The notes below the pieces were generated by a model. That model did no database searches. It had not been told where the DNA came from and saw only the letters and a program-made list of their open reading frames with translations. The translations under genes were made by a program, and so were the position numbers. Shown in pieces: positions 6,853 through 8,214 of a stretch of DNA of 64,000 bases (position 1 is the stretch's first letter; the number at the start of each line of letters is the position of its first letter). Source of the stretch: Escherichia phage 215Ecol030PP; sequence record PP328843.1. One strand, given 5' to 3'.

Positions 6853-6879
6853 AAAAAGCCCCAACCTTTCGGTCGGGGC
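6853..6879 (-). terminator. intrinsic terminator at 3' end of the tRNA/small-RNA transcription unit
   Basis: near-duplicate of the 6295-6322 hairpin, T-run on minus strand. Confidence 0.55.
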
Positions 6880-7196
6880 TAAGCCTTGCGGCAACCTTGT
6901 CGGGGTTCCACCTGCTAAGGCAAGTGTTTGTACGAAACGCCGGGATTCGAACCCGGTTATTAAGCAGTTGACGCTACTCAATATTTTTAAAAGGCCATAT
7001 CTCGACCATATCCGAACGTTCCGTCAAAAACGCTACTCGGCTTATGGCAAAGATATTTCCTCGAATCGATAATTCGGTGCGCCGTTTCTGCTGTGATATA
7101 AGGGGGCATTAACAAAACATAAAGATTTATTAATGCCAGTCCTTAAACAGGGAACATCAGTCCGACGACTTGCCGGTAGCGACCCGGCTTCTTGTC

Positions 7197-7272
7197 TGGT
7201 CGAGGCAGTAGGGATCGAACCTACGACCCAGGACTTAGAAGGTCCTTGCTCTTCCTTCTGAGCTATGCCCCG
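7197..7272 (-). tRNA. tRNA-Arg (anticodon TCT), CCA encoded
   Basis: hand-folded cloverleaf: 7-bp acceptor, D stem GCTC/GAGC, anticodon loop CTTCTAA, T-loop TTCGATC. Confidence 0.8.
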
Positions 7273-7276
7273 TAAT

Positions 7277-7352
7277 TGGGGTGACCGATGGGAGTCGAAC
7301 CCATGACTACGAGAATCACAATCTCGAGTTCTACCAACTGAACTACGGCCAC
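7277..7352 (-). tRNA. tRNA-His (anticodon GTG), CCA encoded
   Basis: hand-folded cloverleaf; anticodon loop TTGTGAT; T-arm ATGGG/CCCAT. Confidence 0.75.
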
Positions 7353-7443
7353 ATTAATACCTACTCCAACAATCAAGATGTCTTCACACGAAATTAAGAG
7401 AAGAGTGATCAGTTCAACCCCTATAATCGCGTCAAGTAGATAT

Positions 7444-7465
7444 TAATGTGACAGTTGTCACAAAT
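7444..7465. promoter_or_regulatory. perfect CRP-consensus-like palindrome TGTGA-N6-TCACA (TAATGTGACAGTTGTCACAAAT)
   Basis: both CRP half-sites and 6-bp spacing exact, A/T flanks; lies 3' of tRNA-Asn. Confidence 0.4.
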
Positions 7466-7466
7466 T

Positions 7467-7541
7467 TGGCGGACGTGATAGGATTCGAACCTATAACCAA
7501 TCGCTTAACAGGCGATCGCTCTGCCATTGAGCTACACATCC
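7467..7541 (-). tRNA. tRNA-Asn (anticodon GTT), CCA encoded
   Basis: hand-folded cloverleaf; anticodon stem ATCGC/GCGAT, loop CTGTTAA. Confidence 0.75.
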
Positions 7542-7645: not shown

Positions 7646-7720
7646 TGGTGGCCCTGGGTGGAATTGAACCACCATCTGGCGATTATGAGTCGCTTGCTTG
7701 AACCTTCCAGCTACAGGGCC
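7646..7720 (-). tRNA. tRNA with anticodon CAT (Met or lysidine-modified Ile, as T4 tRNA-Ile)
   Basis: perfect acceptor GGCCCTG/CAGGGCC, T-arm GGTGG/CCACC, anticodon loop CTCATAA. Confidence 0.75.
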
Positions 7721-7728
7721 AAATTTTC

Positions 7729-8214
7729 TTATTTTATGTAATATTTATTTAAAAACTTTCTAGCTTGAGTATGGCTAACATTTATAGCGTTTGCATAATT
7801 TTTAATAAAACCTCGTTCATCCATATTAAAATTTTCTAATATTTTTAATCGTCTAGTTATCTCATCTTGACTTAAGGTACTTGCATTATTTTTAGAAATT
7901 TTTTCTAAGGACTGTGCCGAGTGTTTTCGACCATTAAAATTAAAATTTTTAGATTTTGGAGGAAATCTAGCATTTAATCTCGCATCTTTTGTATTTTGAT
8001 TATTAGTTGCGCAATATATGTTATTTAATGAATATGGTCCTTTATCGCCGAAACGGCACATGCAGTATTCATGACCCTTTCTTCCACGCTTATCATAATT
8101 TCCCGTTGATTTCCACCAATGCAGCCATTCATCAAAAGTTAAATTCCATTCAATGTTTCTACGTATAGCAGAATTCCGCTGAGAAATATATTTTGCATAA
8201 TCTTCTTTCATCAC
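7729..8214 (-). CDS. putative HNH-family homing endonuclease embedded in the tRNA cluster (161 aa, GTG start)
   Basis: motif GHEYCMCRFGDKGPYSLNNIYCATNNQN resembles HNH core; basic C-terminal DNA-binding-like tail. Confidence 0.5.
   Translation of the reverse strand: MMKEDYAKYISQRNSAIRRNIEWNLTFDEWLHWWKSTGNYDKRGRKGHEYCMCRFGDKGPYSLNNIYCATNNQNTKDARLNARFPPKSKNFNFNGRKHSAQSLEKISKNNASTLSQDEITRRLKILENFNMDERGFIKNYANAINVSHTQARKFLNKYYIK

What the first reader, a model, noticed from the sequence alone, without database searches (positions are those of the whole stretch)
7353..7466. Consensus CRP-type palindrome TGTGA-N6-TCACA in the gap between tRNA-Asn and tRNA-His
The sequence TAATGTGACAGTTGTCACAAAT at 7444-7465 matches both half-sites and the spacing of the E. 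coli cAMP-receptor-protein consensus (AAATGTGA-N6-TCACATTT) exactly, in a 113-bp tRNA-free gap. A perfect host global-regulator site inside a phage tRNA operon could couple tRNA expression to host carbon status, act as a decoy, or be a processing hairpin (6-bp stem) by coincidence.
Basis: partly seen in the sequence, partly recalled or inferred. Interest (0 to 1): 0.5.

Follow-up and report, generated by a model that had tools for sequence, protein, structure and literature searches.

The report
RNA hairpin guarding phage tRNA-His leader
The "CRP site" is most likely not a protein-binding site but the DNA image of a small RNA hairpin at the edge of a conserved, apparently undescribed structured leader that sits directly in front of tRNA-His in T4-like phages.

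Summary
The palindrome TGTGAcagttgTCACA is really at 7447-7462. One exact match is found where 0.10 is expected per 64 kb. The window is a Tequatrovirus (T2/T4-like). All its tRNAs lie on the minus strand, inside one transcription unit that ends at a terminator at 6880-6857.

The CRP reading is not supported:
- There is no promoter-like site next to it on the transcribed strand.
- Only one arm is conserved in four other genera.
- Three other lineages have a palindrome on that same arm, but with N10, N5 or a non-CRP core.
- T-even DNA carries glucosyl-hydroxymethylcytosine, and ModA-modified polymerase cannot interact with CRP.

What is there is a roughly 95-nt structured RNA (7353-7447, minus strand) lying flush against tRNA-His. 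It has a 14-bp closing helix P1, a variable hairpin P2 and a 4-bp hairpin P3. Covariation supports it across at least nine phage lineages, and Rfam has no match.

The five bases 5' of P1 (GUCAC) are complementary to tRNA-His G1-C5, so P1 could invade the acceptor stem. The upstream arm (UGUGAC) nearly copies the tRNA-His 5' junction and can tie up that flank. This decoy role is inferred and untested. A 6-bp stem with a tetraloop on this flank gives TGTGA-N6-TCACA automatically.

The parts
7467..7541 (-). tRNA-Asn (GUU), CCA encoded; upstream neighbour in the transcript
   Evidence: ARAGORN; Rfam tRNA 74.1 bits
7463..7466 (-). 4-nt AAUU linker between the tRNA-Asn CCA end and hairpin P0 (A/U-rich, single-stranded)
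7457..7462 (-). P0 5' (distal) arm UGUGAC. It is the 'decoy': 5 of 6 bases identical to the tRNA-His junction U-1 G1 U2 G3 G4 C5. On the plus strand it is GTCACA, containing the TCACA half-site.
   Evidence: the comparison with 7348-7353 is read directly from the sequence
7453..7456 (-). P0 loop AACU. These are the only polymorphic positions of the palindrome within Tequatrovirus (AACU / AGUU / AAUU).
   Evidence: alignment A3
7447..7452 (-). P0 3' (proximal) arm GUCACA, made of the conserved flank GUCAC (7452-7448) plus the first base of P1 (A7447). The flank is complementary to tRNA-His G1-C5 (P1ext).
   Evidence: conservation; pairing with the tRNA-His 5' end
7353..7447 (-). Conserved tRNA-His leader element, a three-way junction RNA of about 95 nt
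   Evidence: covariance model R1: 106 bits on the minus strand against 16 bits on the plus strand; fold z-score -4.36; 355 phage records hold it
7434..7447 (-). P1 5' strand AUUAAUAUCUACUU
7386..7432 (-). P2, a variable hairpin domain. Three unrelated sequence types (a, b, c) occur in different genera, and each folds as a hairpin.
   Evidence: the type-c compensatory stem was read
7368..7382 (-). P3 hairpin GACA-UCUUGAU-UGUU (4 bp, 7-nt loop; the loop is UCAUGAU in all other lineages that have P3)
   Evidence: pair 79:91 seen as GC, CG, UA, AU and GU
7353..7366 (-). P1 3' strand GAGUAGGUAUUAAU; its last base, U7353, is position -1 of tRNA-His
7277..7352 (-). tRNA-His (GUG). G1-C5 (7352-7348) can pair with the flank. 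U at -1, C73, so no encoded G-1.
7197..7272 (-). tRNA-Arg (UCU), 4 nt after tRNA-His
6929..7195 (-). Homologues of T2L species II (rnaD, about 7195-7075) and species I (rnaC, 7068-6929) stable RNAs; the downstream part of the same transcription unit
   Evidence: blastn against the AJ880101 features; annotation
6857..6880 (-). Intrinsic-terminator-like hairpin (10 bp, 7 GC, T-run) ending the tRNA/stable-RNA unit

Best explanation
The palindrome is the DNA image of an RNA hairpin (P0) in the polycistronic tRNA precursor read from the minus strand.

Its 3' arm (GUCACA) is the conserved 5' flank plus the first base of a roughly 95-nt structured leader. That leader lies flush against the 5' end of phage tRNA-His. 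It consists of a 14-bp closing helix P1, a variable hairpin P2 and a 4-bp hairpin P3.

The flank GUCAC is complementary to tRNA-His G1-C5. P1 can therefore be prolonged by 5 bp into the acceptor stem (P1ext), which would hold tRNA-His in a non-cloverleaf form. The 5' arm (UGUGAC) is a near copy of the tRNA-His 5' junction (UGUGGC). It is transcribed first, so it can tie up the flank as a decoy and leave the acceptor strand free to fold and be processed.

The arm sequences TGTGA/TCACA are thus dictated by the tRNA-His 5' sequence. The N6 spacing is simply a tetraloop plus the closing C:G pair.

Shown: the structure and covariation of P1 and P3, the flank-to-tRNA complementarity, the recurrence of P0 with other loop lengths, and the computed energies. 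Inferred: that P0 acts as an anti-sequestor during folding and processing, the order of folding, and which nucleases act.
For: Location and distribution:
- The element always lies directly 5' of tRNA-His, whatever the upstream tRNA is (Asn here, Gln or Ser elsewhere). This holds in Tequatro-, Karam-, Gelderland-, Roskilde-, Winkler-, Jiaoda-, Kanagawa- and Gualtarvirus phages.

Structure:
- P1+P3 on 13 distinct sequences: 99.6% of cells paired, 5 pairs with changes on both sides, 0 of 500 shuffles as good, slid controls at most 51%.
- P1 on 13 lineages including distant ones: 96.7% paired, 7 pairs with double changes.
- Strand specificity: 106 bits on the minus strand against 16 on the plus strand.

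Flank pairing:
- The flank GUCAC pairs contiguously with G1-C5 (92.3% of cells paired).
- The minimum-free-energy fold of flank+leader+tRNA forms P1ext in every lineage folded that has the flank: window, CW742, Proteus, Cronus and L009, and D479 and phiAS5.

Energies for the window:
- P0+P1+cloverleaf: -55.7 kcal/mol.
- P1+P1ext without the acceptor stem: -50.9.
- P1+cloverleaf without P0: -48.5.
- So P0 reverses the preference towards the folded tRNA.

Recurrence of P0 on the same flank, with other loops:
- STP4-a: GUGACA-gauuau-UGUCAC.
- Vibrio phage D479: GAUGUGA-ggcaa-UCACAUC.
- Aeromonas phiAS5: AUGUAAC-uc-GUUACAU, with a C:G to U:A double change.

Other:
- P0 as RNA: -7.2 kcal/mol. Within Tequatrovirus only its loop varies.
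Against: - No experiment or transcript-end data were available, so the function is inferred.
- P0 is absent in Karam- and Roskildevirus and in Proteus/Melville, which keep the flank. The flank itself is absent where an upstream tRNA abuts P1. So neither is indispensable.
- P1ext has no pair changed on both sides; only one-sided changes were seen.
- Nearest-neighbour energies ignore tRNA tertiary structure and modification, so the 2-5 kcal/mol differences are soft.
- The phiAS5 P0 is weak and RNAfold did not choose it.
- Within-genus conservation of the arms is not significant. By my estimate about 1 change is expected in 12 nt and 0 were seen.
Confidence: 0.55

Rival explanations
1. The hairpin is a plain RNA processing or stability signal, not a decoy. 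It sits 4 nt after the tRNA-Asn CCA end, behind an A/U-rich linker (AAUU). It could mark an RNase E-type cut that releases tRNA-Asn. It could block 3' exonucleases, or cap the 5' end of the released spacer RNA. Stacked on P1, it could offer a roughly 20-bp helix to RNase III. The leader would then accumulate as a stable by-product, like T4 species I/II RNAs.
For: The hairpin lies 4 nt from the CCA end and directly abuts P1 with no linker. The same transcription unit already makes two non-tRNA stable RNAs, rnaD and rnaC, whose roles are unknown (PMC3014915). REP3 and STP4-a kept P0 and the leader after losing tRNA-His. That fits a role independent of tRNA-His.
Against: It does not explain why the distal arm copies the tRNA-His junction in four lineages. 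It does not explain why the flank is complementary to G1-C5. In D479 and phiAS5 the hairpin is not next to an upstream tRNA 3' end. No cleavage data are available.
Confidence: 0.22
2. The palindrome is a neutral DNA feature. It could be a quasi-palindrome left by recombination or template switching at a cassette boundary in a region shuffled by homing endonucleases, with no function as RNA or as a protein site.
For: The [gap + tRNA-His] cassette is absent from T2L (Asn, 4 nt, Arg). In the window it is bounded by short direct repeats, CCAAAT and CCCAAT. SegB-type endonucleases cut at the 3' ends of tRNA genes, preferentially in T2L tRNA-Asn (PMC2330249). The loop variants AACT and AGTT are reverse complements, as template switching in a hairpin would produce. 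Within-genus conservation of the arms is not statistically informative.
Against: An inverted repeat on the same conserved flank occurs in four lineages, with different loops and one compensatory change. That is not expected of a scar. The proximal arm is conserved across genera as part of the leader.
Confidence: 0.12
3. It is a functional CRP-cAMP binding site on phage DNA that regulates transcription of tRNA-His/Arg, or that titrates CRP.
For: The 10-of-10 core match and N6 spacing, with A/T-rich flanks. The core is better than the lac site (TGTGA-N6-TCACT; established knowledge). Naked dC-DNA of this sequence would probably bind CRP in vitro (inference). The site is identical in at least 174 Tequatrovirus records.
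Against: - No sigma-70-like promoter lies downstream on the minus strand. Promoter-like hits in the region (5) are no more than in shuffles (6.3).
- I found no MotA-box or late-promoter motif in the gap by reading the sequence.
- The T4 cluster is read as one transcript from a middle promoter upstream of the cluster (PMC2330249). By homology the same is inferred here; the terminator is at 6880-6857.
- Other genera keep only one half-site. Other lineages have N10, N5 or a TGTAA core.
- Cytosines in T4 DNA carry a bulky glucosyl-hydroxymethyl group in the major groove, and ModA-modified polymerase cannot interact with CRP (PMC2988021).
- One site per genome cannot titrate CRP.
Confidence: 0.03
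4. It is a DNA site for some other dimeric protein (phage or host), a homing-endonuclease target, or a cruciform.
For: It is a perfect 6+6 inverted repeat. The region is a known arena for homing endonucleases (PMC2330249), and a homing-endonuclease-like ORF lies nearby (7729-8214; REP1 annotation).
Against: Arm spacing varies (2, 4, 5 and 6 nt) among lineages, which does not suit a fixed dimer. G:U pairs and the strand-specific model score point to RNA. The SegB recognition site is asymmetric and lies inside tRNA genes (PMC2330249).
Confidence: 0.04

Closest known systems
CRP (cAMP receptor protein) operator, consensus AAATGTGA-N6-TCACATTT
   Same: Identical 5+5 core and N6 spacing, with A/T-rich flanks.
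   Different: No partner promoter. It lies inside a tRNA transcript. The geometry is not conserved in relatives. The DNA is expected to be glucosyl-hmC modified. The arms are explained by complementarity to the tRNA-His 5' end.
T4 species I and II stable RNAs (rnaC, rnaD) of the T-even tRNA operon
   Same: A non-tRNA structured RNA encoded on the same strand in the same polycistronic tRNA unit. It is presumably released by tRNA processing enzymes. Function unknown (PMC3014915).
   Different: No detectable sequence or structure homology: model R1 hits only 7353-7447 in the window, not the rnaC/rnaD region. It is tied to tRNA-His rather than to the 3' end of the operon, and it is absent from T4 and T2L themselves.
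Alternative-pairing (sequestor / anti-sequestor) RNA control elements, as in attenuators and riboswitch expression platforms
   Same: Three segments in which the middle one (GUCACA) can pair either with an upstream near-copy (UGUGAC) or with the downstream target (UGUGGC of tRNA-His). The upstream partner is made first.
   Different: The target is a tRNA acceptor strand, not a terminator or a ribosome-binding site. No ligand or sensing domain has been identified, and the switch may simply be a folding aid.
Structured 5' leaders of pre-tRNAs that influence RNase P cleavage (for example the unusual -1 cleavage of E. coli pre-tRNA-His directed by G-1:C73)
   Same: A helix lies immediately adjacent to the RNase P site of a tRNA-His precursor.
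   Different: Here -1 is U, paired with the first base of P1 and not with C73. No G-1 is encoded. The helix is 14 bp and belongs to a three-way junction.

Membership tests
CRP binding site / CRP-dependent promoter | Two-fold symmetric site with TGTGA-N6-TCACA core | tested here: met
   Exact match at 7447-7462; 3 of 12 non-core consensus positions match (my count).
CRP binding site / CRP-dependent promoter | Positioned relative to a sigma-70 promoter (centred near -41.5, -61.5, etc.) that it can regulate | tested here: not met
   No promoter-like site lies downstream on the minus strand. The only nearby hit is on the plus strand (7455-7484, 9 of 12), antisense to the tRNAs. The total number of hits (5) is not above shuffles (6.3).
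CRP binding site / CRP-dependent promoter | Both half-sites and the N6 spacing conserved in orthologous regions of relatives | tested here: not met
   Conserved only within the near-identical Tequatrovirus set. Karam-, Gelderland- and Roskildevirus keep only GTCACA. STP4-a has N10, D479 has N5 and phiAS5 has a TGTAA core.
CRP binding site / CRP-dependent promoter | Accessible major groove at the G:C pairs of the half-sites, and a polymerase able to respond to CRP | not testable with these tools
   Genus-level knowledge: T-even DNA carries glucosyl-hmC, a bulky major-groove group, and ModA-modified RNAP cannot interact with CRP (PMC2988021). The hmC genes were not looked for in this window.
CRP binding site / CRP-dependent promoter | Binding of CRP-cAMP and crp/cya-dependent expression | not testable with these tools
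   Needs EMSA or footprinting and infection of mutant hosts.
T-even tRNA-operon stable RNAs (rnaC/rnaD) | Encoded on the tRNA strand within the tRNA transcription unit | tested here: met
T-even tRNA-operon stable RNAs (rnaC/rnaD) | Homology to rnaC or rnaD | tested here: not met
   rnaC and rnaD map to 6929-7195. Model R1 finds nothing there.
T-even tRNA-operon stable RNAs (rnaC/rnaD) | Accumulates as a discrete stable RNA in infected cells | not testable with these tools
   No transcript data for phages carrying this cassette were found.
Any Rfam 15 family (ribozymes, riboswitches, T-box, sRNAs, tRNA-like) | Match to a curated covariance model | tested here: not met
   No match in the gap at E<=1. 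Only noise at E>4 when the 161-nt stretch was searched alone. None in variant types b and c.
Intrinsic terminator | GC-rich stem followed by a U-run | tested here: not met
   Not flagged by the scan. The stem has 3 G:C pairs but is followed by UUAAUAU.
Conserved structured RNA (generic) | Base pairs maintained by compensatory changes, strand-specific | tested here: met
   P1 and P3; 106 against 16 bits.
Sequestor / anti-sequestor RNA switch | Mutually exclusive pairings of one segment with two alternative partners, both conserved | tested here: inconclusive
   Both pairings exist, and they recur in four lineages. But P1ext lacks double compensatory changes, several lineages lack P0 or the flank, and no functional data exist.

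The most novel reading that the evidence does not exclude
The tRNA-His leader (P1/P2/P3, with the flank and the decoy hairpin) is a new class of cis-acting phage RNA that controls the 5' maturation of a phage tRNA-His lacking an encoded G-1. The flank, or the GCCA end of the upstream tRNA, would hold the acceptor 5' strand in a roughly 19-bp helix. The decoy hairpin, which is the 'CRP palindrome', would release it. This could couple tRNA-His release to processing of the upstream tRNA, or to a signal sensed by the conserved P3 loop (UCAUGAU, which contains a His codon).
Probability: 0.2. Interest if true: 0.7.

Novelty: new variant of a known kind. Interest (0 to 1): 0.45.

Why it matters
As a CRP site the finding would have implied that host catabolite control reaches into a T-even tRNA operon. 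That reading does not hold, which guards against over-reading consensus matches in hyper-modified phage DNA.

What it uncovers is a conserved structured RNA tied to phage tRNA-His. It is supported by covariation, has no Rfam match, and I found no description of it in the searched literature. A 2010 review states that no riboswitch or regulatory small RNA had been functionally characterised in T4, and that the roles of RNAC and RNAD are unknown (PMC3014915).

Every phage tRNA-His gene checked here has U at position -1. The element therefore gives a concrete, testable handle on how phage tRNA-His is folded, cut and made chargeable. It also bears on how spacer RNAs in phage tRNA operons work.

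Tried and rejected
- First pattern scan of viral contigs (CGTNTGAAGNCNTCNTGA): almost all of the 120 stretches returned were chance matches.
- Stricter pattern: 6 loci, which gave the Cronus type-c variant.
- Metagenome scan: 5 real matches among 120, none new.
- Rfam at permissive thresholds: nothing.
- Literature searches for a described element, for phage tRNA-His G-1, and for CRP on T4 DNA: no prior description found. This covers open-access text only.
- Internal promoter for CRP to act on (plus reading the gap for MotA-box and TATAAATA motifs): none.
- Homology to rnaC/rnaD: none.
- Loop-loop kissing between the P2 loop and the P3 loop. This is attractive for type b, where both loops carry UCAUGA. 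Only 4 bp are possible in type a, and it is not supported in type c. Left as speculation.
- T-box-like reading. The flank contains CAC and the P3 loop contains CAU, both complementary to the tRNA-His anticodon loop. But the window's own P3 loop is UCUUGAU, and several lineages lack the flank. Not pursued.
- Miniature transposon reading (P1 arms as terminal inverted repeats, the decoy as a target-site duplication). Rejected because the pairing is strand-specific with many G:U pairs, changes are compensatory, and the supposed duplication is 2-6 nt from the repeat rather than adjacent.
- Small ORFs in the gap: only spurious ORFs overlapping tRNAs.
- A formal CRP weight-matrix score was not computed, because no curated matrix was available offline.

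Full report
**Observation**

The 22-mer TAATGTGACAGTTGTCACAAAT is at 7444-7465, and the core TGTGA-N6-TCACA at 7447-7462. It lies in the 114-bp gap (7353-7466) between tRNA-His (7277-7352) and tRNA-Asn (7467-7541). Both tRNAs, like all ten in the window, are on the minus strand. The exact core occurs once in 64 kb against 0.10 expected, and 10 of 100 shuffles had a match. With one mismatch allowed there is still one match against 2.33 expected. As a bare pattern it is only mildly surprising.

**Context**

The region is 97.5% identical to Tequatrovirus phages (REP1, vB_Eco_F26, T2-like), and the cluster matches 1122 phage records.

Transcript order on the minus strand is:
- Gln, Leu, Gly, Pro, Ser;
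- an ORF (7729-8214);
- Met(CAU), Tyr, Asn;
- the gap;
- His, Arg;
- rnaD (about 7195-7075) and rnaC (7068-6929);
- a strong terminator-like hairpin at 6880-6857.

For T4, the tRNA cluster is read as one primary transcript from a middle promoter just upstream of the cluster, ending after species I RNA (PMC2330249). I infer the same for this window by homology. T2L lacks the gap and tRNA-His altogether (Asn, 4 nt, Arg). The gap and tRNA-His therefore form a variable cassette.

**Test of the CRP reading**

- No sigma-70-like promoter lies on the minus strand near the site. The region's promoter-like hits (5) do not exceed shuffles (6.3). I found no MotA-box or late-promoter motif in the gap by reading it.
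- Outside Tequatrovirus only the arm next to the leader (minus-strand GUCACA) is conserved. Karam-, Gelderland- and Roskildevirus phages have no second half-site.
- Three other lineages carry an inverted repeat on that same arm, but with non-CRP geometry:
  - Salmonella phage STP4-a: GUGACA-gauuau-UGUCAC (N10);
  - Vibrio phage D479: GAUGUGA-ggcaa-UCACAUC (N5);
  - Aeromonas phage phiAS5: AUGUAAC-uc-GUUACAU (core TGTAA).
- In T4 each cytosine carries a glucosylated hydroxymethyl group that fills the major groove. ModA-modified RNA polymerase cannot interact with CRP in vitro (PMC2988021). I apply this to the window by genus-level inference.
- Within Tequatrovirus only the central loop/spacer varies (AACT, AGTT, AATT). 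That fits either reading and does not discriminate.

I put a functional CRP site at about 3%.

**What the gap contains**

The gap is not a featureless spacer. Its sequence matches 355 phage records. The conserved part runs from about 7363 to 7454 and is 75-89% identical in Enterobacter, Klebsiella, Salmonella and Proteus phages. In every case it lies directly 5' of tRNA-His, whatever tRNA is upstream.

The minus strand folds with a z-score of -4.36. RNAalifold on 13 distinct sequences gives a 14-bp closing helix P1 and a 4-bp hairpin P3. Between them lies a variable domain, P2, which comes in three unrelated sequence types that each form a hairpin.

Pair counts for P1+P3:
- 99.6% of cells paired;
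- five pairs with changes on both sides;
- 0 of 500 shuffles as good;
- at most 51% paired when the partners are slid.

A covariance model built from this alignment scores 106 bits on the minus strand at 7353-7447 and 16 bits on the plus strand. It finds nothing else in the window, including rnaC and rnaD. Rfam 15 has no match for any variant. I found no description of the element in the searchable literature.

More distant phages keep reduced forms:
- Edwardsiella PEi26 has P1 alone as a hairpin between tRNA-Asn and tRNA-His.
- Morganella MP1 has P1 with a 30-nt interior.
- D479 and phiAS5 have P1-like hairpins flush with tRNA-His.

On trimmed constructs from 13 lineages, P1 is 96.7% paired, with seven pairs changed on both sides.

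**How the palindrome fits**

The proximal arm of the palindrome is the conserved flank GUCAC (7452-7448) plus A7447, the first base of P1. The flank is complementary, contiguously with P1, to tRNA-His G1-C5 (GUGGC, 7352-7348). P1 can therefore extend by 5 bp into the acceptor stem (P1ext).

Thermodynamic folding of flank+leader+tRNA-His forms this extended helix in every lineage I folded that has the flank:
- the window, CW742, Proteus phage, Cronus and a metagenomic Karamvirus-like contig (L009);
- D479 and phiAS5.

Across 13 lineages, 92.3% of P1ext cells pair. Where the flank is missing, the upstream tRNA's 3' GCCA plus one nucleotide occupies the same register and keeps four of the five pairs.

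The distal arm UGUGAC (7462-7457) matches the tRNA-His junction U-1 GUGGC at five of six positions. The distal arms in D479 (GAUGUGA against GAU|GUGG) and phiAS5 (AUGUAAC against AU|GUGAC) likewise mimic their own junctions.

Energies for the window's sequence:

| Structure | Energy (kcal/mol) |
|---|---|
| P0 + P1 + cloverleaf | -55.7 |
| P1 + P1ext, acceptor stem open | -50.9 |
| P1 + cloverleaf, no P0 | -48.5 |

Without P0 the sequestered form wins by 2.4 kcal/mol. With P0 the folded tRNA wins by 4.8. P0 alone is -7.2 kcal/mol.

I therefore read the palindrome as a decoy (anti-sequestor) hairpin. It is made first during transcription. It ties up a flank that would otherwise invade the tRNA-His acceptor stem.

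This also explains the resemblance to CRP. UCACA is the wobble-tolerant complement of U-1 G1 U2 G3 G4, so UGUGA must follow as its partner. A 6-bp stem with a tetraloop then gives N6.

**Limits**

- All functional statements are inferences.
- P0 is missing in several lineages that keep the flank. The flank is missing in others.
- P1ext shows only one-sided changes.
- The energies ignore tRNA tertiary structure.
- REP3 and STP4-a kept P0 and the leader after losing tRNA-His, which may point to a role independent of tRNA-His.

Hence the rivals: a plain processing or stability hairpin (0.22), a neutral quasi-palindrome at a cassette boundary in a region shuffled by homing endonucleases (0.12), another DNA-level site (0.04), and CRP (0.03).

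**Comparison with known systems**

The element works most like an alternative-pairing RNA element placed in a pre-tRNA leader. By location it belongs with the non-tRNA stable RNAs of the T-even tRNA operon (rnaC, rnaD; roles unknown, PMC3014915). It is not homologous to them. It is not a member of any Rfam family. It fails the CRP-site tests for promoter context and for conservation.

**Verdict**

- The CRP interpretation is not supported.
- The underlying object is a conserved, apparently undescribed tRNA-His leader RNA. I rate it a new variant of a known kind, of moderate interest (0.45).
- The most novel reading not excluded is a dedicated maturation-control device for a G-1-less phage tRNA-His, at about 0.2 probability.

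Noticed in passing
window 7352-7353 (minus strand); also L003-L009, L129-L136, L262-L269: The phage tRNA-His gene has U at position -1 and C73, so the G-1 that E. coli HisRS uses as an identity element is not encoded. U-1 pairs with the first base of P1 instead. The same U-1 is seen in every tRNA-His checked, including Vibrio phage D479 and mycobacteriophage Catera.
   Followed up: partly
L003, L132, L155, L262, L265 (upstream tRNA 3' end plus 1 nt, then P1): Where the GUCAC flank is absent, three different upstream tRNAs (Gln, Asn, Ser) all end in GCCA exactly one nucleotide before P1. That places GCCA in register to pair with U2-C5 (UGGC) of tRNA-His.
   Followed up: partly
L138 (Escherichia phage REP3) and L005 401-520 (Salmonella phage STP4-a): Two phages independently lost tRNA-His. 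The deletions start within its first few bases. Both kept the leader element and the P0 hairpin.
   Followed up: partly
window 7453-7456; L137, L138, L139: The only polymorphism in the palindrome among Tequatroviruses is its 4-nt loop: AACT, AGTT (the reverse complement) and AATT. This looks like hairpin-templated switching or stepwise mutation.
   Followed up: partly
window 7372-7378; alignment A2 columns 82-88: The P3 loop is UCAUGAU in every other lineage that has P3. That sequence contains the His codon CAU and the self-complementary UCAUGA, and type-b P2 loops carry the same UCAUGA. In this window and the other Tequatroviruses it is UCUUGAU.
   Followed up: partly
L004 503-614, L006 about 500-606, L005 about 580-680: Karam- and Gelderlandvirus phages carry a further conserved stretch of about 115 nt between tRNA-Gln and the leader. 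It has long internal complementarity (for example CCAUUUAU/AUAAAUGG). It may be another structured RNA or a degenerate tRNA.
   Followed up: no
window 6929-7195 and 6857-6880: Homologues of T2L species II (partial, with a diverged middle) and species I (97% identical) stable RNAs follow tRNA-Arg directly, and are followed by a strong terminator-like hairpin. T2L has the ORF trna.2 between tRNA-Arg and rnaD; blastn found no match to it anywhere in this window.
   Followed up: partly
window 7729-8214 (minus strand): A 161-aa ORF lies between tRNA-Ser and the CAU-anticodon tRNA. The equivalent ORF in REP1 is annotated as a putative site-specific homing endonuclease. Other relatives have different inserts here.
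   Followed up: no
window 7646-7720: ARAGORN and the T2L record call the CAU-anticodon tRNA Met, but the REP1 record calls it Ile. It may be a lysidine-type tRNA-Ile.
   Followed up: no
L267 (Klebsiella phage KB57, Vequintavirinae) 288-350: A phage of a different subfamily also has a long stem (AGUGCU...AGCACU) enclosing about 45 nt upstream of a related tRNA-His. It is separated from the tRNA by 5 nt and is not detectably homologous to the leader.
   Followed up: no
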